From assembly GCA_016211185.1 (NCBI GenBank), contig JACQST010000059.1, forward strand, positions 1 through 33,993: a stretch of DNA of 33,993 nt, in the 5' to 3' direction. This document shows positions 9,666 to 28,369 of this stretch, one piece after another. The notes below the pieces were generated by a model that saw only the letters and a program-made list of their open reading frames with translations, did no database searches and had not been told where the DNA came from. The position numbers and the translations under genes are program-made. The DNA comes from Candidatus Woesearchaeota archaeon (GTDB lineage Archaea > Nanobdellota > Nanobdellia > Woesearchaeales > UBA10216). The stretch's first letter is position 1; each line of letters begins with the position of its first letter.

Positions 9666-11588
9666 TCAAATCACAACTATGCCCTTGAGCTTGAACCCGT
9701 AAATAAAGATGCGGTCCCACAGAAAACTCTTCTTCCTTGTAACCCTCACAGAAAAACCAGCCTGCCTGAAAACCTGCTCAATCCTGGCGTCATCAGCAAG
9801 CCACTCAAGCGAGGGAAGAAGATGGAAGAAGTCAGAGTACTCCACAAAACAAATCCTGGCATCAGGAGACAAAACCCTGTACATGTCCTTCAGGATGCGC
9901 TGCATGTCATGCATGTATCCAAGCATGCCAACAGACACAACAACATCAGCCCTGTGCACATCAGGGTGGAGCCTGTAGAACTGCTCAGGGTCATGGATAA
10001 GCCTTGCCTCGCCATACACCCTGCCTTCAGTCTCCCATCTCTCCTTCTCAATCCGCTTCATGGTTATCTTCAGGTCATTCTTGGAGAAATGAGTCGCATA
10101 CACCGCGCCGTCAGGCCCCACAGCCCTCAACAGCGAAGTAGTTAATGTCCCGACGCCACAGCCAAACTCAATGACTGTCTTCCCATAAAGGTCACCGAGA
10201 AAGCTCATTATCTCCTTCCTAAGCCCCTTAGGGTAGCTGAACCTCTCTGTAAAGAAGCTGAGATAGGAAAAAAGGTCATTAATCTCTGTAATCATCTGAG
10301 GGTCATAATATATCTCAATCAGGAAATACAGGGGAATCCCCATGAGGATTAAGGAAATGCTCAGCTTCAGCAAAGTAGGGCCGTTCTGCGTTGTAAGAGT
10401 GCCGATAATTATTGCGGCCAGCAGGGCAACAGCCACCAGCACAGGACCAATTTTTCCGAAAGGAACCCTGTAGAGCCGCTCAACATGAGGGTCCTTGAGC
10501 CTCAGAATCGGAACAGTCAGGATAATAGGGATATACATGATAATGGCAAGAGGAATCAGGATGCTGAGCAGCACCTCATACTGGCCAAAGCCAAGCAGCA
10601 GAATAAGCATAGTTATCGCAGCCTGAAACATTATGGCCTTATAAGGAGTCTTGAACTTGGGGTGTATCTCGCTCAGCCTGCCAAACTGGAGCTTGTCCCG
10701 AGCCAAGGCAAGGGTCAACCGGGGTATAGTCACTATGCCTGAAGCAGCCGAGCCAAGAAGTGTGATAAAAATGCCCGCAATGATGATGCCCTCGCCAGCA
10801 GAGCCAAACAACACTTGGGCAAGAGCCTTGGTAGGCGAACTCATTGAAGCAAGAGCCTCATACCCGAACACCCCCAGGCTGACAAAAATGATTCCCGCGC
10901 CAAGCAGAGCAATAACAACAGTCCCGTTTACAATAGCCCGCGGAATAGTCCTCCTCGGGTCTTTTGTCTCCTCAGCCAGATAAGTCGCGGCCTCCCACCC
11001 AAAATAAGCCTCCATAAGGAAAAACATGCTCGTAAAAACAGTTGCAAAACCATGCGTGGCGAGTGGCACAAAATTCGCAGCAGCCACATTAAAGGAGCCC
11101 TTGCCAATCAGCGCCGCAAGCACAGCAACCATAACCACGGCAAAACATATCATTATGAAAGAAGTAGCCTCTATCCCGACGTAAGCTATAAGGTTCAGCA
11201 TAACTATGAGGATAAGGCTGAGAAGAAACTTCGTCGTGGTTAAAGAGTCAGGAATCAGGAGATTAATCGCGGCGACAATCATGACGACCACAGAAAGGTT
11301 GCCGACCAGCCACGCAGTCCACCCTATCATAAAAGACATGAACCGGCCATACGCCTGCTTGCTATACTCATACACGCCCCCGCTCTTGGGAAACATGCTC
11401 ACAAGCTCGCTAAAGCACATAGCTATGTAAATGGAAATCAGGGAAAGAATCACCCACGCAACCATTGAAAGGTTCCCGGAATACCTTGCGCCTATGCTAG
11501 GCCCGAAAAATATCGCTGTCCCTATAATGGAGCCTATGGACAGGCAAAGAATAGTCCAGTACCCAAAACCCCTCTTCAGCTCATACAT
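9666..11588 (-). CDS. APC-family amino acid permease fused to a C-terminal class I SAM-methyltransferase-like domain
   Basis: LKR..G, IG.IIG.AIF, ELVSMFPKSGG.YEY, YFGWE....LAEE.KDP.RTIPRAI, about 12 TMs; C-terminal VIEFGCGVG, VGPDGAVYA, RVLSPDARICFVEY. Confidence 0.88.
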   Translation of the reverse strand: MYELKRGFGYWTILCLSIGSIIGTAIFFGPSIGARYSGNLSMVAWVILSLISIYIAMCFSELVSMFPKSGGVYEYSKQAYGRFMSFMIGWTAWLVGNLSVVVMIVAAINLLIPDSLTTTKFLLSLILIVMLNLIAYVGIEATSFIMICFAVVMVAVLAALIGKGSFNVAAANFVPLATHGFATVFTSMFFLMEAYFGWEAATYLAEETKDPRRTIPRAIVNGTVVIALLGAGIIFVSLGVFGYEALASMSSPTKALAQVLFGSAGEGIIIAGIFITLLGSAASGIVTIPRLTLALARDKLQFGRLSEIHPKFKTPYKAIMFQAAITMLILLLGFGQYEVLLSILIPLAIIMYIPIILTVPILRLKDPHVERLYRVPFGKIGPVLVAVALLAAIIIGTLTTQNGPTLLKLSISLILMGIPLYFLIEIYYDPQMITEINDLFSYLSFFTERFSYPKGLRKEIMSFLGDLYGKTVIEFGCGVGTLTTSLLRAVGPDGAVYATHFSKNDLKITMKRIEKERWETEGRVYGEARLIHDPEQFYRLHPDVHRADVVVSVGMLGYMHDMQRILKDMYRVLSPDARICFVEYSDFFHLLPSLEWLADDARIEQVFRQAGFSVRVTRKKSFLWDRIFIYGFKLKGIVVI

Positions 11589-16083: not shown

Positions 16084-16440
16084 ATGGGCTTCTTTGACAA
16101 AGTCATGTTCTGGAAAAAAAAGGACGACCTGGCACTTGACGGCAACCTTGCAACAGGAATGGACACCCAAAACCCGTTCCCTGCACAAAACCAGTTCCAG
16201 CCAGCACAGCAGCAGCCATTCCAGCAGCAGGGCTTCTACGGCCAAGGGATGCAGCAGGTGCAGCCCCCACAGATGGATGCCTTCCAAAGCTCAAGCGCAT
16301 ACGCAGCAAGCAGACAGCTTGAAGTGGTATCAGCAAAGCTTGACGCGCTCAAGGCAGCCATGGACTCGATGAGCCAGCGCCTCTCAAACATAGAAAGGGC
16401 ATTCCAAGACGATTTCTACAGGAAACGGGGAGGATGGTAA
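16084..16440 (+). CDS. Gln/Pro-rich low-complexity protein with C-terminal coiled coil
   Basis: RBS GAGGTGA upstream; MGFFDKVMFWKKKDD, Q-rich linker, LEVVSAKLDALKAAMDSMSQRL. Confidence 0.85.
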   Translation: MGFFDKVMFWKKKDDLALDGNLATGMDTQNPFPAQNQFQPAQQQPFQQQGFYGQGMQQVQPPQMDAFQSSSAYAASRQLEVVSAKLDALKAAMDSMSQRLSNIERAFQDDFYRKRGGW

Positions 16441-16877
16441 AAACAAGAAAACCAGAACCAGACCTGCTGCTCACAACAATAGCTGTGCTTGCTTTTGACA
16501 GGCTCACGAAGCACTACGCACAAAACCTAACCGAGCCAATAAGCATAACACCACTGCTAAGCATAAGCCTCGTAAGAAACACAGGAGCAGCATTCGGAAT
16601 ACTCCCCGGAACATCACTCATACTGGCTGCAATAGGCACAGCAGTAATAGCAGCAATCCTACTCAGCTACAGAAAGCTGTCTGCGACCCGGAAAACCCGT
16701 ATAGCAACAGGACTCATACTGGCAGGCACAACAGGAAACCTCATCGACAGGCTCCTCCTTGGATACGTAATAGACTTCATAGACCCAAGCTTCTGGCCCG
16801 CATTCAATGTTGCGGATGCTGCACTGACTGTTGGAGCTGCAATCCTCCTAATCCACATCTACACAAAAAAGAACTAG
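16434..16877 (+). CDS. lspA: Lipoprotein signal peptidase (signal peptidase II)
   Basis: D.LTK, NTGAAFG, GNLIDR, GYVIDFI, FNVADA with both catalytic Asp residues; 4 TMs. Confidence 0.92.
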   Translation: MVKTRKPEPDLLLTTIAVLAFDRLTKHYAQNLTEPISITPLLSISLVRNTGAAFGILPGTSLILAAIGTAVIAAILLSYRKLSATRKTRIATGLILAGTTGNLIDRLLLGYVIDFIDPSFWPAFNVADAALTVGAAILLIHIYTKKN

Positions 16878-20218: not shown

Positions 20219-20668
20219 CTATCCATACCTCTCGCCCTCAACATTAGCCTCCCTGAGAAGCTCCAGAGTCTCCTCATCCATAGAATAACTCTTGTTATAG
20301 TAAACCTTCCTTATGCCTGCGTTGATGATTGACTTTGCGCAGTAACGGCACGGACAGTGGCTCGTGAAGATTGCGGCGTCCTTTGTCGCTATTCCTTGGT
20401 ATGCTGCCTGAACAATGGCGTTCTCCTCGGCATGGACACACATGCACTCATGCAGCCCCTCGCCGCTCTTAACACTTGATGCACAGCGCTCACAGCCGCC
20501 CTCATTGCAGTTTTTCACTCCGCGAGCAGTGCCATTATAGCCTGTCGAGATAATCATATTGTCCTTAACGACGACTGCTCCAACCTGCCTCCTGACGCAA
20601 GAGCTTTTCTTGGCAATGAGCCTGGAAACCTCAATAAAATACTGCGTCCAACTGATTTTTTCCTGCAT
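20219..20668 (-). CDS. dCMP deaminase (ComEB/Dcd1-like)
   Basis: SW..YF, S.C.RRQVGAV.V, STGYNG, CVHAEENAI, PCRYC.K.IINAGI; RBS GAGGTGA. Confidence 0.94.
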   Translation of the reverse strand: MQEKISWTQYFIEVSRLIAKKSSCVRRQVGAVVVKDNMIISTGYNGTARGVKNCNEGGCERCASSVKSGEGLHECMCVHAEENAIVQAAYQGIATKDAAIFTSHCPCRYCAKSIINAGIRKVYYNKSYSMDEETLELLREANVEGERYG

Positions 20669-20674
20669 AAAAGC

Positions 20675-21229
20675 TCACCTCCACACAACCCTCAGCACGC
20701 GAGCCATCTGCTGAGCACGCGCCCTGAACTCATCAATGGTGCCCTCGTTAACAATGGCGTAGTCAGCCATAGCTATCGGGGAAGCTTTGTCAATGTTCTC
20801 AATCTCCGCTATGTCCCTTGACCTCGCCTGCTCCTCAGAAAGGCGACGCTCACCCCTGAAAGCAAGACGCCTATATCTGGTGGCAGGCGACGCATAAATG
20901 GCAAGAAGCACAAGACCTGGAAATTTAGGCTTCAGATAGGTGTATTCCTGCCAGCTATACAAGCCGTCAATAACCACGTCAGAACTACTTAAGGTATCCC
21001 TTATCTTGGGCTCGTTCAGCTTGGCATAAGCATCCATGCCGTGCTCAACACGCAACGTTTCCCTCACAACAGACTCGTTCTCCTCATTGATATCAAGCCC
21101 TCTCCTCTCAAGCTCGTCCATAGTAACAGCGCCGAAACGTATCTTCCTGTATCCTTCCTTCTCAAAAACCTCTGTCGCGGTGCTCTTCCCTGCGCCAGGC
21201 ATCCCCACAATCGCGATAAGCCCATGCAT
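20675..21229 (-). CDS. P-loop kinase, UPF0200/dephospho-CoA-kinase-like
   Basis: IAIVGMPGAGKS, LR.EHG..A.A, VVIDG, RY.RL..R, RD..E, I..ADY.I.NEG. Confidence 0.88.
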   Translation of the reverse strand: MHGLIAIVGMPGAGKSTATEVFEKEGYRKIRFGAVTMDELERRGLDINEENESVVRETLRVEHGMDAYAKLNEPKIRDTLSSSDVVIDGLYSWQEYTYLKPKFPGLVLLAIYASPATRYRRLAFRGERRLSEEQARSRDIAEIENIDKASPIAMADYAIVNEGTIDEFRARAQQMARVLRVVWR

Positions 21230-21295
21230 AACGCGAAGTTGTCCACGAAGATTTAAAAAGGTTTTTGGAAAGTTGGAAATACAGAAGAGCAAAAA

Positions 21296-21732: not shown

Positions 21733-23157
21733 TTAGTATGTGGTGTTTATCTGGTCCTGCTCATACTTCAAGCCTTTTTTCAGGGCAAGCTCTGCCCTCA
21801 TCAGCTCCTGGCCGATGTAGATGGCATGGCTGATGTCGCTGGCCTTCTGCTCCAGCACAATCCACCTTGAAGCCTCCTGAGAACTCGCTGCTAAGAACTC
21901 CTCAAGCCTCTGGCCATCAGGCGAAAGATGAGTTACCTTTATCCTGCCGCCCTCAACTGATATGTGAATGTTTCCCCTCGGGTCAAGGTTTCCAGTGCTC
22001 CTTGGAAGCTCAAAAGAAATGTTCTTATCCAAAGGATACTCCCGAAGGACTTCCTGCGCCTGCCTGAAATGCCTCTCATAAACATGCGCACTGGCAGAAA
22101 TCATGATGGTTTCGCCGAGCTCTTTTCCTGTCTCTGCGCATAACTGCTTCTGAAGCTTCCTTAAAGCATAAGCGTTCTTAGGCCACGCACCATAGATGTC
22201 GTTGCTCCTCAAATAAGCAATCAGGTAAAGCTTATCGCCCTGAATTATCGCCTGCACAAGGTTAAGGCACGGCGGGTTAATGCTGTCCATATCCAAGTTG
22301 ACGTCCCAAGTGACAGCAACAGCCCTCCTGGTATGGGGATGCTCATTAAGCTTCCGGGCAATTTTACTAATCTGGTCAACCCCCTTATGAGACCTTAGCC
22401 TCTGGCCATAAGTATATGTGATTTCAGGAACCTTCTGGTCAGTAAGAACCTGTGGATAATACTCCTCAAGCTCCTCCTCCGGAAAAGCAAAATAGGGCTT
22501 CCATTGGGGCTTGTCAGGGTCCTCATGAGTAATTATGGTTGAAAGGCAGATAATCTCCTTTTGCTTCTCCTCGTGCTGAGACTCCTTGAGAGCTCCGAAC
22601 TTCATAATCGTGCTTAGAGCCTGAAGCCATGCCTCGCCAATTGTCCTTGCCCGAATCTTGAAAACAGGGTCAGTGGGGAAATTCATCGGAACCTCAACCC
22701 TCGCCTCAGGAAATGACTCAGGGCTCCCGTAGCCCGTCTTTAAAGGCAGCCCTGCAATAACCTGCTTCAAGACGCTGTAGTCTGTAACGTTCCTGGCGTC
22801 AATGACATCGACATTCTTCCTGAAGCTCTCAACAGCATCCAAAGGAATCTCATTATCCACCCGCGCACCACTCACTCCCCTTACCGAACGTTCATCATCC
22901 ACCCCTTTTTCCTTTAGGCTGATAAGTGCCTGTCCGCTCTGGCTCCTGTCCTGGCCGCACACAACTATGTAACGGATGTTCTTGTTGAAAAGGCAGTACC
23001 TGAGAACAGTGTTAAGCCCGGCATCCTTTGAATAAAGCTGGCCGATAACCGCATAGCTGTCTCTGTCCAGATGCCTCTCAACAATCTCAAGCGGAGTCCA
23101 CAAAGTGCAGACTGCAACATTACTCTTCTCGTTACCAAGCTTCACAGACTGTTTCAT
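21733..23157 (-). CDS. thyA: Thymidylate synthase with N-terminal MtrA-like and C-terminal DUF4346-like domains
   Basis: TS core: YTYGQRL, TRRAVA, NPPCL, RSNDIYGAWP.N, SAHVY. N-terminus: VAVCTL, N.NIRY.VVCG, GQAL..L...GVD, AVE.FR..V.VID. C-terminus: DP.GN, SHA.Y.G.EL.RAE.AL..G..Y.QD. Confidence 0.88.
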   Translation of the reverse strand: MKQSVKLGNEKSNVAVCTLWTPLEIVERHLDRDSYAVIGQLYSKDAGLNTVLRYCLFNKNIRYIVVCGQDRSQSGQALISLKEKGVDDERSVRGVSGARVDNEIPLDAVESFRKNVDVIDARNVTDYSVLKQVIAGLPLKTGYGSPESFPEARVEVPMNFPTDPVFKIRARTIGEAWLQALSTIMKFGALKESQHEEKQKEIICLSTIITHEDPDKPQWKPYFAFPEEELEEYYPQVLTDQKVPEITYTYGQRLRSHKGVDQISKIARKLNEHPHTRRAVAVTWDVNLDMDSINPPCLNLVQAIIQGDKLYLIAYLRSNDIYGAWPKNAYALRKLQKQLCAETGKELGETIMISASAHVYERHFRQAQEVLREYPLDKNISFELPRSTGNLDPRGNIHISVEGGRIKVTHLSPDGQRLEEFLAASSQEASRWIVLEQKASDISHAIYIGQELMRAELALKKGLKYEQDQINTTY

Positions 23158-23197: not shown

Positions 23198-24334
23198 TTA
23201 CGCATAGAATCTTTTGCCATTCCTGTAATCCCTTGCAAGCTCCCTTAACTTTTCAGGTTCAGCATGTATGCCCTTCTTTTTCAGCAGCCCTGAAACTCGG
23301 CCGGATGACAGGAACTGGAGGAACTGGGTGGTGTTTTTAGGCTTAACTGTGATGTGGCACCTCTCAAAGTCAATCATTACAGGCTTGCCGCTCTTAATGA
23401 CTATTATGTGCTTCAAGGGATGATGCATCTCCTCCTTGCCCACGCCCATCCTGTCCATCAGCAGACACTGCCTCAAAACTTCCTTCACAACCTTTACAGC
23501 AGCTTCAGCACTGCACGCTTGAAGGAAATCACATATGTATTGCCCCTCCACAAAGCGGTATGCAAAGAAGCCATTGCCTGCAAAAACCAGCTCAGGACCG
23601 ATGCCCTTCCTGTTAAGGCGCCGAAGCCAAGCGGCCTCGTTAGAAACCCTGCCTTTGGCCTTTGAGTCAGGCCTCTCGGCCTTAACAGCAACCTTCCTTT
23701 TCCTGTAAACTGCAGTGTACACAACTCCCCTCTTGCCCCTGGCGAAAAGGCGGACTGCACTAGCGCCTTTTTTCTCCAACTCCACCAGAAGGGGTTTCTT
23801 GGCTATCAAGTAGCAGTAAAGCGTCTCAAAAAAGAACCTCTTCTGCCCTATTACGCTGAAGTCATAGCAGTTGTCCTTGATTATTCTCTCCACCGCATGG
23901 TTCGTTGTAAGGCTGCTCGCTACAAGAATAATCCTCCCGTCGGGCTTCAGGAAATTACTGCTTGCCCTGATAAAGCGCTCAACCGTCTCATAGCCCTTCC
24001 TGCCCCCGTATATCGCCCTATCCTCAATCCCTTTATCCTGAGGAAGATACGGCGGGTTGAAAATGATTGTATCAAACTGCCCCCTGATGCCCTCAAAAAG
24101 GTCTGCCCTGCGAAACTTTATCCTGATACCCTCACTTGCAGCATTTGTCCTTGCCGCATGAAGCGCAGCATCGCTGATGTCTGTCGCTGTCGCTGATTTC
24201 ACGCCCTCTTTCTTCGCTGCAGCTATTGCAAGGATACCTGTTCCTGTGCCCACCTCAAGGACGTCCCCTACTGCATGCTCCTTCACAGCTTCAAGAAGAA
24301 GATAGCTGTCCTCAGCAGGGTTGTAGACTGCCAT
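23198..24334 (-). CDS. HemK2/PrmC-like methyltransferase fused to a COG2112-like Ser/Thr protein kinase domain
   Basis: VY.PAEDS.LL, VLEVGTGTG, FD.IIFNPPYL, GG..G; then FARGKRGVVY, VAVK, NEA.WL, IDFE. Confidence 0.87.
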   Translation of the reverse strand: MAVYNPAEDSYLLLEAVKEHAVGDVLEVGTGTGILAIAAAKKEGVKSATATDISDAALHAARTNAASEGIRIKFRRADLFEGIRGQFDTIIFNPPYLPQDKGIEDRAIYGGRKGYETVERFIRASSNFLKPDGRIILVASSLTTNHAVERIIKDNCYDFSVIGQKRFFFETLYCYLIAKKPLLVELEKKGASAVRLFARGKRGVVYTAVYRKRKVAVKAERPDSKAKGRVSNEAAWLRRLNRKGIGPELVFAGNGFFAYRFVEGQYICDFLQACSAEAAVKVVKEVLRQCLLMDRMGVGKEEMHHPLKHIIVIKSGKPVMIDFERCHITVKPKNTTQFLQFLSSGRVSGLLKKKGIHAEPEKLRELARDYRNGKRFYA

Positions 24335-24408
24335 TATAGGCAAGCCTGTTGAGCTTGTTAATAAGCTATTTGTATTATGAAACTTGAAGTTATCAAAACT
24401 TTAAATTT

Positions 24409-25629: not shown

Positions 25630-28077
25630 CTACCTCGCCCTGAATCCCCGCATAAGCAAGGTATTGGCAACCACGCTGACAGAGCTGAACGCCATGGCAG
25701 CGCCAGCAATTATGGGGTTTAGCAGGAAGCCCGTGAACGGGTAAAGAAGGCCGGCAGCAATAGGTATGCCTGCTGTGTTGTAGAAGAAAGCCCAGAACAG
25801 GTTCTGTTTTATTTTTCGGACAGTGTAGCTGCTTATGTCCATGGCCGTAACAACCTTCTTCAGGTCTCCCTTGACAAGCACAATGTCCCCTGCCTCTATT
25901 GCTATGTCTGTGCCTGTGCCCATTGCTATCCCTATGTCTGCTGCTGCAAGCGCAGGGGCGTCGTTAATGCCGTCGCCAACCATCGCCACGCTCATTCCTT
26001 GGGCTTTGAGCTTGTTCACTTCCTTTTCCTTGTCTTCCGGCAACACCTCTGCAAGCACCTTTTGTATGCCTGCCTGCTTTGCGATGGCCTCAGCAGTCCT
26101 TATGTTGTCGCCAGTAATCATTATCACTTCCTTTCCCATCCTCTGCAGCTCAGCTATTGCCTCAATTGAGCCTTCCTTCAAGGTGTCTGCAACAGCCACC
26201 AAGCCAGCTACCTTGCTGCCATGTGCAAGAATCATAACCGTCTTCCCCTGTCCCTCGAGCAGGCCTATCTTTTCCTCAGCATCCTTCAGGGAAATCTTGC
26301 TGTCAGCCATCAGCTTCCGGTTTCCAAAAAGAATCTTCCTTGCCTTGTATGCAGCCTCTATTCCTTTGCCTGTTATTGACTTAAAGGCTGATGGCTCCGC
26401 AATCTCAAGATTTTCCTTCTTTGCCTCGCTGATTATTGCCTCTGCCAAAGGATGCTCTGAACGCTTCTCAGCTATTGCCGCAAGCTTTAGAACATCTTTT
26501 TGTTGCAAAGCAAAACCAACAACATCAGTCACTTCAGGCTTTCCCTTGGTTATTGTACCGGTCTTGTCAAGGACTATTGTGTCTGCTTCGCGCGCCTTCT
26601 GAAGGGCAGCTGCTGTCCTGAACAAAATTCCCTGCTGAGCGCCAAGCCCAGTCCCCACGATTATTGCTGTAGGCGTTGCCAGCCCCATGGCGCACGGGCA
26701 GGCTATTATGAGGACTGAAATAAAGATCATTAACGAGAACGCAAACCCTGCTCCGGAAAAAAGCCACGCGCCTGCAGCTATAAACGCAATTACAATCACA
26801 GCAGGAACAAAATAAGCTGAAACTGAATCAGCCAGCTTCTGGATTGGCGCCTTGCTGCTCTGAGCCTGCTCCACAAGCCGTATTATCTGGGCAAGCATCG
26901 TGTCCTTCCCAACTTTTGTTGCATTAAACCTGAAGCTGCCTGTCCTGTTTATCGTTCCCCCGATAACAACGCTTCCCTTAAACTTCTCAACAGGAATGCT
27001 CTCACCAGTAACCATTGACTCGTCAACAGCAGAGCTTCCACTAATCACACGGCCATCCACAGGTATCTTCTGGCCAGGCTTAACTATAACTGAATCGCCA
27101 ACAGCCACTTCATCAATAGGCACATCCACCTCCTTACCACTTCTCACTACCGTGGCAGTCTTTGCCTGAAGCCCAATCAGCTTCTTAATTGCCTCAGATG
27201 TTTTGCCCTTCGCAACCGCCTCAAGAAGCTTGCCCAAGAGGATGAACATCAGAAGGAGGCCTGCTATCTCATAATAAAGGTCATGCATCCCGAAGCCTGC
27301 GCCTTGCATCATCAGGATAGTTATTGCTATGCTGTAAACATATGCAGCCCCAGTACCTATTGCTACAAGGGTATCCATGTTGGCAGTCCTTCCGAAAACT
27401 GCAGCCCTGAAACCCTTGACATAAAACTCCCTGCTCACCCATATGATGGGCGTTGTAAGGGCCAGTTGCATTATTGCATATGCCTCGTCGCCAATCTCAG
27501 GAAGCGGAAGCCTGAGCAGGCCTGACATCGCGAGATACGCCAGCGGAATGCTGCACACAAGTGAAATGAGAAACTTAGTCTTTAGCTGACTTATCTCGCG
27601 CTCCCTCTCCAGCTTTTCCCTATCCGTAGCTTCCTCCGCATAGTCTTGAGGCGTGTATCCTGCATTGGTTATCGCAGCCTTTATTGCCTTAAGACTAGTG
27701 ACTGAAGGGTCATAACTCACAGAAACAATCTTTGAAGCGTAGCTTGCCTCAGAAACCTTGACACCCCTAACCTTCATGAGCGCTGAATGCACAATCATTG
27801 CACAGTGCTCTGATGCCATGTCATTCACTGTGAGCTTTACTGTTGTGCCTTCAGAGCCCTGCATTGAGGCGGTGTATCCTACTTTCCTCACGGCGGTGAC
27901 TATGGCCTGTTCAGAGGTGCTTTTCCCGTCAAACTCAACAAGCGCCTTGCCGCTTGCGAAGTTCACATTCGCGCTTTTAACGCCTTTCTCTTTCTTCAGG
28001 GCTTTCTCTATGGTAACTGCGCAGCTTGCGCAATCCATCCCTTTTATGCTCAATACTGCTTTTTCCATTTTCTCCAT
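25630..28077 (-). CDS. copA: Cu(I)-translocating P1B-type ATPase
   Basis: [33 protein letters not shown] and MAFSS motifs; start at 28077 (or 28068). Confidence 0.95.
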
Positions 28078-28087
28078 ACATGCTTCA

Positions 28088-28369
28088 TCATAGCCTGTTG
28101 TAAACAGCTGCGAATAGGCTGCCCATGCCATAACCCAACGAAGCCACCACAACGATTCCGGTGGCAAATGACTGGAGGCTTATATTTACAGCCCATATTT
28201 CCGATACATCAATCCCGTGCATAAGCGAGTTCGAAATGAACACCATTGCCCATGTGGGAAGGACTACAACCGCAATCAGGCAAACAAGCGACAAAGCCAT
28301 AAGGCTTATGGCGAGGCTCAGCCCTGCCCTGTGCGGCTCTAACCGGTTTACATTGACATGCCCCTTCAT
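28088..28369 (-). CDS. Small membrane protein (DUF5676-like) upstream of copA
   Basis: Two TMs with a Cys, an MHG.D motif and G.LFA.VYN; RBS GAGGTG upstream. Confidence 0.75.

What the first reader, a model, noticed from the sequence alone, without database searches (positions are those of the whole stretch)
21733..23157. Three-domain thymidylate synthase: MtrA-like (no cobamide His) + ThyA + DUF4346
Seen: the N-terminal ~130 aa follow the MtrA pattern, but the corrinoid-ligating His segment (EV.GH..GQ) reads QDRSQSGQ. The TS core keeps the catalytic Cys (PPCL) and the dUMP-specifying Asn (GAWPKN). The C-terminus matches DUF4346, also found on archaeal dihydropteroate-synthase-like and MtrA-like proteins. 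No DHFR gene is in the window. Inference: the flanking domains form a pterin-binding or recycling module, giving a self-contained dTMP pathway with the deaminase. I recall similar long ThyA proteins in other taxa but know of no function for the extra domains.
Basis: partly seen in the sequence, partly recalled or inferred. Interest (0 to 1): 0.75.

Follow-up and report, generated by a model that had tools for sequence, protein, structure and literature searches.

The report
Thymidylate synthase inside a B12-protein relic
This tiny archaeon's only enzyme for making the DNA base T sits between two halves of a module derived from a vitamin-B12-binding protein, and genomes with this design lack the usual folate-recycling enzyme, which points to an unstudied way of supplying its cofactor.

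Summary
The ORF at 21733-23157 (-) encodes 474 aa. It has an MtrA-like domain, a methanogen-type ThyA core and a DUF4346 domain. All ThyA catalytic residues are kept, and the MtrA cobalt-ligating His lies in a 2-residue deletion.

The design is widespread in DPANN archaea and CPR bacteria. I found no paper on it. This scan noted it before on other DNA: 37 findings in at least 35 genomes.

New results:
- I picked 27 genomes with the fused enzyme from a 201-genome phylum sample. DHFR occurs only in the 6 that also carry a classical thyA-folA(-glyA) cluster, and in 0 of the other 21. ThyX occurs in 1 of 27.
- MtrA+DUF4346 is an older two-domain module. It keeps the His/Glu cobalt-ligation motifs and lies beside a TS-like gene in 27 of 36 DPANN/CPR-type loci.
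- All 80 aligned fused proteins lack that His loop.

Best reading: this is the cell's sole, FolA-independent thymidylate synthase, and the relic module handles its cofactor. Which cofactor it handles is unresolved. Missing SHMT is phylum-wide and therefore not diagnostic.

The parts
21733..23157 (-). Whole gene: three-domain thymidylate synthase, 474 aa plus stop codon
   Evidence: ORF list. Pfam finds three domains. NCBIfam TIGR03283 scores above its cut-off. 117 of the 120 best homologues listed carry the same three Pfam domains.
22708..23157 (-). N-terminal MtrA-like domain (aa 1-150), Rossmann-like fold, without the cobalt-ligating His
22930..22959 (-). Loop aa 67-76 (CGQDRSQSGQ), the site where MtrA carries His84. 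It is 2 residues shorter here.
   Evidence: Alignment to 5LAA. The loop G68-G75 is 8 residues long in 80 of 80 fused proteins, and a non-conserved His occurs in 7 of 80. His-bearing relatives read CGKxSxGH.
22003..22662 (-). Methanogen-type short ThyA core (aa 166-385)
22267..22269 (-). Codon of the catalytic nucleophile Cys297 (motif PPCL)
   Evidence: Translation. The residue aligns with the catalytic Cys of L. casei ThyA and is kept in 80/80 family members.
21736..22002 (-). C-terminal DUF4346 domain (aa 386-474): three beta strands followed by two helices
   Evidence: Pfam PF14251 at aa 391-468. The domain-only model has pLDDT 84.7. Invariant in all 19 sequences of A2: D, P and G of the DP.G motif, H, G.E, A-E and Q; Y.QD is at least 90% conserved. 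These motifs are shared with the stand-alone and the MtrA-linked forms in that alignment. There is no PDB sequence match and no informative fold match.
20675..21292 (-). Downstream P-loop kinase-like gene (AAA_17/AAA_18), 205 aa
   Evidence: Pfam. The order TS, then kinase-like gene, then dCMP deaminase is kept in the three same-family relatives L030, L032 and L034.
20219..20668 (-). dCMP deaminase, 149 aa. It supplies dUMP.
   Evidence: Pfam dCMP_cyt_deam_1, E 1.5e-22. It is a conserved neighbour of the TS gene.

Best explanation
The gene encodes the cell's only thymidylate synthase. A short, methanogen-type ThyA core (Cys297 nucleophile, dUMP-binding Arg/Ser/Asn, Asp320) is nested between the two halves of an MtrA-like/DUF4346 module.

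The module descends from a two-domain protein that keeps MtrA's cobalt-ligating His84/Glu54/meander motifs. In other DPANN archaea and CPR bacteria that protein is a separate gene lying directly upstream of a TS-like gene. In the fused branch the His loop has been deleted.

Shown here: the architecture, the intact catalytic set, the loss of the His network, the descent from the His-bearing module, and the fact that genomes with only this enzyme lack FolA-type DHFR and ThyX.

Inferred: the core activates dUMP in the ordinary ThyA way, and the flanking module is a built-in cofactor station. DUF4346 begins where classical ThyA has its C-terminal segment, which by recalled textbook knowledge closes over the folate. 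DUF4346 would therefore sit on the cofactor side of the active site. The conserved crevice of the N-domain (W20, Y42, R53, D70, R113, D120, R122) would hold a second ligand that is not His-ligated. This ligand would return reducing equivalents or the one-carbon unit, so that no free dihydrofolate has to be recycled by DHFR.

My odds:
- It is the functional thymidylate synthase: 0.9.
- It works without FolA: 0.75.
- The module handles the cofactor: 0.55.
- The specific form 'pterin held and re-reduced in place': about 0.3.
For: Identity as a TS:
- Pfam and TIGR03283 score above their cut-offs.
- The catalytic residues are invariant in 80/80.
- The gene sits with dCMP deaminase and a kinase, or with Tmk in relatives.
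- It is the only PF00303 hit in the genome and there is no ThyX.

FolA independence, in a 201-genome phylum sample (all at least 90% complete):
- I took 27 genomes with a full fused ORF from the table.
- DHFR is present in 6 of 27. These are exactly the 6 that carry an extra full-length classical ThyA next to folA and/or glyA.
- DHFR is present in 0 of the other 21, which span 13 families.
- ThyX is present in 1 of 27, against 97 of 201 overall.
- FolD scores over its cut-off in 3 of 27 and GcvT in 0 of 27.

The module is under selection:
- Both flanking domains have invariant polar residues.
- The module persists with the same motifs where the TS core is degenerate or largely deleted.

Origin of the module:
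- His-bearing MtrA+DUF4346 proteins exist.
- 28 of 36 DPANN/CPR-type loci hold a TS-core ORF. In 27 of them a His-bearing module ORF was also called, mostly directly upstream on the same strand.
- 0 of 19 of those genomes have DHFR and 1 of 19 has ThyX.

Cofactor site:
- The Pfam TS match covers only profile positions 88-228 of 266. The classical N-terminal and C-terminal segments are therefore not detected, and the cofactor site may be built differently.
Against: - I could not inspect domain contacts, because no coordinates were available.
- An unrecognised DHFR analogue elsewhere in the genome, for example a short-chain reductase, cannot be excluded.
- The lack of SHMT is not specific to this enzyme. 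74 of 97 ThyX genomes in the sample also lack it, so these organisms have an unknown methylene source in any case.
- All 6 other genomes of the window's own family have SHMT. The three of them that carry the fused enzyme (G070, G120, G200) also have FolD; FolD was not searched in the other three. In the two loci fetched (G200, G070) SHMT and FolD lie in a long same-strand gene run, which Pfam shows to be a purine operon in G200. Folates are therefore used in this lineage. The operon's absence from this 90.65%-complete assembly could be an assembly gap.
- The sampled genomes are related to one another, so the counts overstate independence.
- The set of 27 was picked by hand from a table that left 104 matches unlisted.
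Confidence: 0.4

Rival explanations
1. Corrinoid-dependent thymidylate synthesis. The N-domain still holds a corrinoid without a protein His ligand, as the corrinoid iron-sulphur protein does (recalled knowledge). It relays the one-carbon unit as methyl-cobalt to Cys-activated dUMP, or relays electrons. Neither methylene-folate nor DHFR would then be needed.
For: - In 27 of 36 DPANN/CPR-type loci, a module that keeps the His84/Glu54/meander motifs lies in the same locus as a TS-like gene, mostly directly upstream.
- In the two CPR operons scanned, DUF4430 and DUF6580 genes precede it. From memory only, these are cobalamin-uptake-associated families.
- DUF4346 also occurs fused to a BtuF-type Peripla_BP_2 domain and to 4Fe-4S ferredoxins.
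- This reading would explain DHFR, ThyX and SHMT independence at once.
Against: - In the fused branch the His loop is deleted in 80 of 80 proteins. In the window's protein Glu54 is Lys44 and the meander consensus is changed, and position 44 is K in 42 and R in 10 of 80 fused proteins. The known cobalamin-binding mode is therefore lost.
- The fused core keeps canonical RSND with the pterin-contacting Asp320 in 80/80, whereas the TS-like partners of His-bearing modules read KTND in 26 of 28. The two systems may differ chemically.
- No DUF4430 or DUF6580 gene is found in this genome. The control for one search matched nowhere, so that absence is weak evidence.
- No methyl donor for cobalt is evident.
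Confidence: 0.2
2. Ordinary ThyA with inert or regulatory appendages. The flanking domains are evolutionary relics that serve only folding, oligomerisation or regulation. The core uses a folate or another pterin in the usual way, and the dihydropterin is reduced by an unrecognised reductase or exchanged with the host.
For: - All canonical ThyA residues are kept and the core scores as a TIGR03283 equivalog.
- Stand-alone short ThyA-type proteins exist without these domains.
- The cobalt-ligation motifs are lost.
- Same-family relatives use folates, with SHMT and FolD in a purine operon.
- DPANN genomes with ThyX mostly lack SHMT too, so unknown or host-supplied folate chemistry exists anyway.
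Against: - Both flanking domains carry many invariant polar residues, which is unusual for a passive appendage.
- The module survives with intact motifs where the TS core has decayed.
- DHFR is found in 0 of 21 genomes that have only the fused enzyme but in 6 of 6 with a classical ThyA. This reading needs an extra unknown enzyme to explain that.
Confidence: 0.3
3. Not a thymidylate synthase. Instead it is another TS-fold pyrimidine-modifying enzyme, a hydroxymethylase or a flavin-dependent hydroxylase, that makes a modified base.
For: - A flavin-using branch of the TS superfamily is documented (PMC13326640, passages read).
Against: - Asn328 is invariant. By established ThyA knowledge this residue selects dUMP, and cytosine-specific relatives carry Asp.
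- It is the only TS candidate in the genome.
- It is almost mutually exclusive with ThyX (1 of 27).
- It is linked to dCMP deaminase and Tmk.
- The Z differences partly reflect the shared short chain length.
Confidence: 0.05

Closest known systems
Methanogen-type short thymidylate synthase (NCBIfam TIGR03283, thy_syn_methano)
   Same: The core at aa 168-366 scores 178.8 bits against a cut-off of 174.55. It has the same short chain and the same catalytic Cys, Arg, Ser, Asp and Asn.
   Different: Those proteins are about 200-250 aa and stand alone, whereas here the core is nested in a two-domain module. [quoted passage not shown]
Cytoplasmic MtrA homologue / MtrA cobalamin-binding domain (PDB 5LAA, 5L8X; Wagner et al. 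2016, PMC4915002)
   Different: His84 is deleted, Glu54 is Lys, and the meander consensus is changed. There is no membrane anchor. The domain is fused to a TS.
Split system: His-bearing MtrA+DUF4346 gene followed by a TS-like gene in DPANN and CPR genomes
   Same: Same three building blocks, the same pyrimidine context (dCTP deaminase, Tmk, DeoC), and the same absence of DHFR (0 of 19) and near-absence of ThyX (1 of 19).
   Different: It consists of two genes. The module keeps the His/Glu/meander motifs in 35 of 35 proteins. The TS-like partner reads KTND instead of RSND in 26 of 28 and carries an insertion. No paper on it was found. Earlier notes of this scan describe it.
Bifunctional DHFR-TS of protozoa and plants
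   Same: A TS fused to a cofactor-recycling partner, which is the functional analogy behind the best reading.
   Different: There is no DHFR domain here (PF00186 not found). Foldseek aligns these proteins through the TS part only, with rmsd about 19-22 over the full length.
ThyX (flavin-dependent thymidylate synthase)
   Same: Its genomic behaviour is the same: present without FolA-type DHFR. It is almost mutually exclusive with the fused enzyme (1 of 27).
   Different: Unrelated fold. ThyX carries FAD, and no flavin-binding signature was found here.
Flavin-dependent dCMP hydroxylase of TS fold (PDB 9IQC/9IQU; 5hodCMP synthase, PMC13326640)
   Different: It acts on dCMP and uses oxygen. Here the dUMP-selecting Asn is invariant.

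Membership tests
ThyA-type thymidylate synthase (PF00303 / TIGR03283) | Sequence score above the curated family cut-offs | tested here: met
   PF00303 scores 74.5 bits against 24.3. TIGR03283 scores 178.8 bits against 174.55.
ThyA-type thymidylate synthase (PF00303 / TIGR03283) | Catalytic Cys nucleophile | tested here: met
   C297 in PPCL aligns with the catalytic Cys of L. casei ThyA and is kept in 80/80 family members.
ThyA-type thymidylate synthase (PF00303 / TIGR03283) | dUMP phosphate-binding Arg/Ser, and the Arg pair contributed by the partner subunit | tested here: met
   R317 and S318 are kept in 80/80, R277 in 79/80 and R278 in 75/80.
ThyA-type thymidylate synthase (PF00303 / TIGR03283) | Asn that selects uracil, and Asp that contacts the pterin ring | tested here: met
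   N328 and D320 are each kept in 80/80. The roles of these residues come from established ThyA knowledge.
ThyA-type thymidylate synthase (PF00303 / TIGR03283) | Classical folate-covering N-terminal helix and C-terminal lid | tested here: inconclusive
   The Pfam match covers only profile positions 88-228 of 266. The short methanogen-type family also lacks these segments.
ThyA-type thymidylate synthase (PF00303 / TIGR03283) | Obligate homodimer and dTMP-forming activity | not tested
   No dimer prediction was run and no assay is possible with these tools.
MtrA (cobalamin-binding subunit or homologue, PF04208) | Fold and Pfam score | tested here: met
MtrA (cobalamin-binding subunit or homologue, PF04208) | His84 as lower axial ligand of cobalt | tested here: not met
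   There is a 2-residue gap at the 'GH' position. The loop is 8 residues long in 80/80 fused proteins.
MtrA (cobalamin-binding subunit or homologue, PF04208) | Glu54 hydrogen-bonded to His84, and the meander consensus GAIPF(Y/F)XEN | tested here: not met
   Lys44 aligns with Glu54, and the meander reads GARVDNEIP. Position 44 is K in 42 and R in 10 of 80.
MtrA (cobalamin-binding subunit or homologue, PF04208) | Part of the MtrA-H membrane complex | not tested
   There is only one MtrA-type hit in the genome, and it is this gene. The other Mtr subunits were not searched.
DUF4346 (Pfam PF14251, 'PterinBD-DUF4346') | Pfam score and the shared motifs DP.G ... H..(L/I)G.E..(K/R)AE ... Y.QD | tested here: met
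   PF14251 scores 55.5 bits against 29.6. The motifs are shared with stand-alone and MtrA-linked forms.
DUF4346 (Pfam PF14251, 'PterinBD-DUF4346') | Pterin binding, as the Pfam name suggests | not testable with these tools
   There is no solved relative by sequence or by fold, and no paper was found.
Bifunctional DHFR-TS | A DHFR domain (PF00186) | tested here: not met
   There is no PF00186 match in the protein or in the genome.

The most novel reading that the evidence does not exclude
The MtrA/DUF4346-associated thymidylate synthases of DPANN archaea and CPR bacteria, split and fused, would be a third biochemical route to dTMP. This would be a ThyA-fold enzyme whose one-carbon unit or reducing power comes from a cofactor held by a corrinoid-protein-derived module: a corrinoid in the His-bearing split form, and a changed or His-off cofactor in the fused form. 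The route would need neither DHFR nor ThyX-type flavin chemistry.
Probability: 0.22. Interest if true: 0.9.

Novelty: new variant of a known kind. Interest (0 to 1): 0.68.

Why it matters
Only two routes to thymidylate are established, ThyA plus DHFR and ThyX, and both are drug targets. A large group of ultra-small archaea and bacteria carries a ThyA core tied to a module derived from a B12-binding protein. In the genomes sampled here they carry it without DHFR or ThyX. That makes the question of how these organisms supply and recycle the one-carbon cofactor directly testable with one recombinant protein.

There is also a practical point. The MtrA-like domain makes annotation pipelines call 'mtrA' in non-methanogens. 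This could mislead metabolic reconstructions and ancestral-state inferences of methanogenesis genes. For example, MtrA is inferred for the last archaeal ancestor in PMC13473441 (passage read). I did not test whether that inference is affected.

Tried and rejected
- Searching the C-domain alone in the 5.8-billion-protein index gave nothing, because too few exact words were shared.
- The ESM Atlas gave no usable hit for aa 385-474.
- The C-domain has no PDB sequence match even at E <= 10.
The queue was always full and the job never ran, so domain packing is untested.
- Model coordinates are not exposed to scripts, so I could not measure inter-domain contacts.
- Literature searches for 'DUF4346', 'PF14251' and 'MJ0757' returned 0 papers. 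The searches 'thymidylate synthase' + 'MtrA' + 'archaea' and 'thymidylate synthase' + 'corrinoid protein' returned only unrelated papers. The library lacks most subscription journals, so this is not proof that nothing is in print.
- I first read 'no SHMT, FolD or DHPS in this genome' as a sign of folate-free chemistry. I rejected that reading. SHMT is missing in 74 of 97 ThyX genomes too. All 6 other genomes of the same family have SHMT, and it lies in a purine operon in the relative scanned (G200).
- I considered a link to the heavy-metal ATPase four genes away, because His-bearing modules in free-living bacteria sit beside ArsR regulators and P-type ATPases. I rejected it because no such neighbour recurs in the 20 related loci.
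Full report
WHAT IS THERE. The ORF at 21733-23157 on the minus strand encodes 474 residues. Pfam finds three domains, all above their curated cut-offs:
- MtrA (aa 5-135, 57.2 bits).
- Thymidylate synthase (aa 244-378, 74.5 bits).
- PterinBD-DUF4346 (aa 391-468, 55.5 bits).

In the alignment to 5LAA, the MtrA segment 'cgsevqghivgq' faces 'cgqdrsq..sgq'. The MtrA structure paper (PMC4915002, passages read) defines the cobalt-ligation network as His84, Glu54 and the meander 'GAIPF(Y/F)XEN'. Here His84 lies in a 2-residue deletion, Glu54 is Lys44, and the meander reads 'GARVDNEIP'. In an alignment of 80 fused proteins (A1) the loop has the shortened length in 80 of 80, and only 7 of 80 have any His in it. 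The TS residues C297, R317, S318, D320, N328 and Y250 are invariant in 80/80. R277, H358 and Y360 are kept in 79/80.

HOW COMMON IT IS, AND WHAT IS IN PRINT. A search of the 5.8-billion-protein index gave 410 relatives at E <= 0.001 among 7,999 scored candidates. Of the 120 best listed, 117 carry all three Pfam domains. Their source names are Woesearchaeota, Nanoarchaeota, Aenigmarchaeota, Pacearchaeota, Patescibacteria/Parcubacteria, Chloroflexi and KSB1, and they are annotated only as 'thymidylate synthase', 'DUF4346 domain-containing protein' or 'hypothetical protein'.

Full-text searches for DUF4346, PF14251 and MJ0757 returned no paper. The searches TS+MtrA+archaea and TS+'corrinoid protein' returned only unrelated ones. 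The thymidylate-evolution paper PMC9931769 does not contain the words DPANN, fusion or MtrA. This scan itself has noted the architecture before on other DNA: 37 findings in at least 35 genomes. I used those notes as leads and tested two of their claims, described below.

IS IT THE CELL'S THYMIDYLATE SYNTHASE? The window lies in a 0.999-Mb assembly of 84 contigs that is 90.65% complete. This gene is the assembly's only PF00303, only MtrA and only DUF4346 match, and no ThyX is found. The gene is followed on the same strand by an 88-aa ORF, a P-loop kinase-like gene and a dCMP deaminase. The order TS, kinase, deaminase is kept in the three same-family relatives. In other orders a thymidylate kinase is the recurrent neighbour: families 3 and 7 together occur in 10 of 21 loci.

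THE CO-OCCURRENCE TEST. I searched 201 genomes of the phylum, all at least 90% complete, with the family profile. From the printed table I took 27 genomes whose match covers the N-, TS- and C-parts in one ORF. There were 22 single-piece matches and 5 with an insertion.

Rows I dropped:
- Degenerate or partial long ORFs: G072, G013, G065, G158, G099, G113, G060, G156, G150.
- All short or single-domain matches.
- In addition, 104 matches were not listed by the tool, so the set may be incomplete.

Results over the whole sample and over the 27:
- DHFR: 64 of 201 overall, 6 of 27.
- SHMT: 62 of 201 overall, 9 of 27.
- ThyX: 97 of 201 overall, 1 of 27.
- FolD over its cut-off: 3 of 27.
- GcvT: 0 of 27.

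A Pfam TS search on the 27 shows that exactly the six DHFR-bearing genomes (G097, G161, G192, G109, G169, G005) carry an additional full-length classical ThyA (profile 1-266, 292-336 aa). In five of the six it lies next to folA, and in four of those glyA is in the same cluster; in G192 thyA, folA and glyA are on different contigs. The 21 genomes with only the fused enzyme, from 13 families, have no DHFR.

DHFR therefore tracks classical ThyA (6 of 6) and not the fused enzyme (0 of 21). Two caveats apply. The genomes are related to one another, and a non-homologous reductase would not be seen.

A CONTROL THAT CUTS THE OTHER WAY. This genome also lacks SHMT, FolD and DHPS-type pterin-binding domains, and 18 of the 27 lack DHFR, SHMT and ThyX together. 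But SHMT is missing in 74 of the 97 ThyX-bearing genomes as well, so its absence is a phylum-wide puzzle and not a property of this enzyme. All 6 other genomes of the window's own family do have SHMT. In G200 SHMT and FolD sit inside a purine operon made of PurF, PurD, a formyl transferase, 5-formyl-THF cyclo-ligase, SHMT, FolD, PurM, PurL and PurQ. Of 13 ORFs in that region of G200 and 13 in the matching region of G070, only one each has even a weak tblastn hit in this assembly. The whole operon is therefore missing here, either truly or through the roughly 9% assembly gap. Folates are thus used in this lineage.

WHERE THE FLANKING MODULE COMES FROM. I searched a profile of 19 DUF4346 domains (A2) against 1.84 billion representative proteins. 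It found 2,112 proteins at E <= 0.001 and 1,071 at E <= 1e-10. I scanned 50 of the best 150 with Pfam, chosen to cover the intermediate and long lengths. The architectures were:
- Strong MtrA (E 1e-38 to 1e-54) plus DUF4346, 272-466 aa.
- Weak MtrA-like, a middle region, then DUF4346, 375-435 aa.
- TS plus DUF4346.
- The three-domain protein with an added Tmk or dCMP deaminase.
- A 4Fe-4S ferredoxin plus DUF4346 (4 proteins).
- A BtuF-type Peripla_BP_2 domain plus DUF4346 (1 protein).

NCBIfam also matches the C-domain to the tail of the archaeal dihydropteroate-synthase-like family TIGR00284.

Four of the five strong MtrA+DUF4346 proteins aligned keep 'GH' (His84) (P0261 has Tyr there); all five keep 'TEN' (Glu54) and a meander-like motif. 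The TS-linked branch has the 2-residue deletion.

With an alignment of five His-bearing proteins I fetched 80 loci from species-representative genomes and scanned their ORFs with my own profiles of the three parts. A TS-core ORF is present in 28 of the 36 loci from DPANN archaea, CPR bacteria or unnamed small genomes (L053-L088). It usually lies directly downstream on the same strand. It is present in 0 of the 44 loci from free-living bacteria (L089-L132). In L053-L088 all 35 module proteins keep the His and TEN motifs, and 27 of them have the TS-like gene in the locus. 26 of the 28 TS-like partners read KTND where the fused enzyme reads RSND, and all 28 keep the Cys.

The two CPR operons scanned read DUF4430, DUF6580, dCTP deaminase, MtrA+DUF4346, TS-like, (Tmk), DeoC. 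The two DPANN loci read MtrA+DUF4346, TS-like, dCTP deaminase. Of 19 such genomes, 0 have DHFR and 1 has ThyX; their completeness is not known. This confirms the earlier notes' claim of a split, His-bearing form.

It also adds a clean dichotomy:
- Split form: His-bearing module with a KTND partner.
- Fused form: His-less module with an RSND core.

Neither DUF4430 nor DUF6580 is found in this window's genome. The control for the second search matched nowhere.

THE MODULE CAN OUTLIVE THE ENZYME.
- In G007, G094 and G016 a 379-391-aa protein keeps the His-less N-domain and an intact DUF4346 but has lost the catalytic part of the TS. It still sits beside a kinase/dCMP deaminase gene in all three, and beside Tmk in G007 and G094.
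- In one family (G013, G065, G158, G099) the TS part is degenerate, with no Cys and no RSxD, while the DUF4346 motifs are intact.
- Stand-alone DUF4346 proteins of 105-121 aa occur in genomes with no match to the TS core of the family profile, including three genomes of the window's own family. Those genomes use ThyX.

The module is therefore under selection on its own.

HOW IT MOST LIKELY WORKS. Shown: an intact ThyA catalytic set, and a conserved two-domain module of corrinoid-protein ancestry whose known cobalt-ligation network is gone. Also shown: the genomic behaviour of an enzyme that needs neither FolA nor ThyX.

Inferred: the core activates dUMP through Cys297 as any ThyA does, and the module serves the cofactor side of the reaction. 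DUF4346 begins right after the last TS helix, which is where classical ThyA continues into the C-terminal segment that closes over the folate (established ThyA knowledge, recalled). Pfam detects only profile positions 88-228 of 266, so the classical cofactor-covering segments are not recognisable. The conserved residues of the N-domain (W20, Y42, D70, R122 and others) lie just after the predicted beta strands. That is the usual ligand crevice of Rossmann-like folds.

I commit to a built-in cofactor station that makes the enzyme independent of FolA. The most likely form holds a pterin and restores it in place (about 0.3). A His-off corrinoid relay is the main alternative (0.2). A passive relic combined with an unknown reductase elsewhere is the sober rival (0.3). 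The identity of the ligand is open. The DUF4346 fold has no informative solved relative. I could not examine domain packing, because no coordinates were available and the complex predictor was never free.

COMPARISON WITH WHAT IS KNOWN, AND VERDICT. The core is a member of the methanogen-type ThyA family, and all defining features I could test are met. The N-domain has the MtrA fold but fails the three cobalt-ligation features, so it should not be filed as a cobalamin-binding MtrA. The protein is not a DHFR-TS. Functionally it behaves like ThyX with respect to DHFR. The best structural neighbour of the core is a flavin-dependent dCMP hydroxylase (9IQC; PMC13326640, passages read). This shows that the short TS fold can work with a cofactor other than folate, although the invariant Asn328 argues for dUMP as the substrate here. 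The cofactor of even the stand-alone methanogen ThyA is unsettled (PMC9012536, passage read).

I rate the finding as a new variant of a known kind. It is real, widespread and uncharacterised, and it offers a directly testable question about a third way to sustain thymidylate synthesis.

Noticed in passing
window 9666-11588 (-): A 640-aa ORF fuses an amino-acid permease (aa 8-403) to a class-I SAM methyltransferase domain (aa about 457-598). This is an unusual pairing of a transporter with an enzyme.
   Followed up: no
window 23198-24343 (-): The 381-aa gene just upstream of the TS has an MTS/PrmA-type methyltransferase domain at aa 13-151 only. The C-terminal 230 or so residues have no Pfam match. 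From reading the sequence I suspect a small kinase-like domain, but I did not test this.
   Followed up: no
window 25630-28167 (-); loci L089-L132: A heavy-metal P-type ATPase with HMA domains lies four genes from the TS. In free-living bacteria, His-bearing MtrA+DUF4346 genes sit beside ArsR-family regulators (10 of 44 loci) and heavy-metal P-type ATPases (9 of 44 loci). This hints at a role for that module connected with metals or metalloids. The ATPase is not a recurrent neighbour in the 20 fused-enzyme loci.
   Followed up: partly
P0186, P0219, P0220, P0259; P0244: DUF4346 also occurs fused to a single-cluster 4Fe-4S ferredoxin (four proteins of about 194 aa) and to a BtuF-type periplasmic-binding-protein domain (368 aa).
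   Followed up: no
L025:5686-6339 (G007), L024:3552-4220 (G016): Stand-alone short TS-like proteins in these genomes read 'TPG' where the catalytic 'PPC' should be, so they lack the nucleophile Cys. G016 has ThyX. G007 has DHFR.
   Followed up: partly
L048:6372-7403, L049:5991-7235, L050:1092-2399, L051:3013-4260: One DPANN family has three-domain relatives with a degenerate TS part (no Cys, no RSxD) but intact DUF4346 motifs. G065 and G158 also carry DHFR, SHMT and a ThyA-like ORF of about 300-330 aa near them.
   Followed up: partly
L018:5998-6312, L019:5950-6264: Stand-alone DUF4346 genes of 105 aa overlap the end of an AP-endonuclease-2/UvdE-like gene and lie near dCTP deaminase and an RsmB-type methyltransferase.
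   Followed up: no
many genomes (e.g. G008:C12:113492-114772, G120:C4:250304-251620): Most ThyX matches in this phylum come as two Thy1 domains in one ORF of 450-630 aa. These are tandem-duplicated, single-chain ThyX proteins.
   Followed up: no
G000 whole assembly vs L026 (G200) and L027 (G070): The assembly lacks the whole purine/folate operon that its family relatives carry (PurF, PurD, formyl transferase, 5-FTHF cyclo-ligase, SHMT, FolD, PurM, PurL, PurQ). Only 1 of 13 ORFs from each relative has a weak hit. This is either a real loss or an assembly gap.
   Followed up: partly
L081:12-3110: The GyrB gene of a Nealsonbacteria genome carries an intein (Intein_splicing domain at aa 392-898).
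   Followed up: no
window 16434-16877 (+): A signal peptidase II (lipoprotein signal peptidase, Peptidase_A8) gene occurs in an archaeal context that includes S8e, L10P, eIF-1A, LSM and diphthamide synthesis genes.
   Followed up: no
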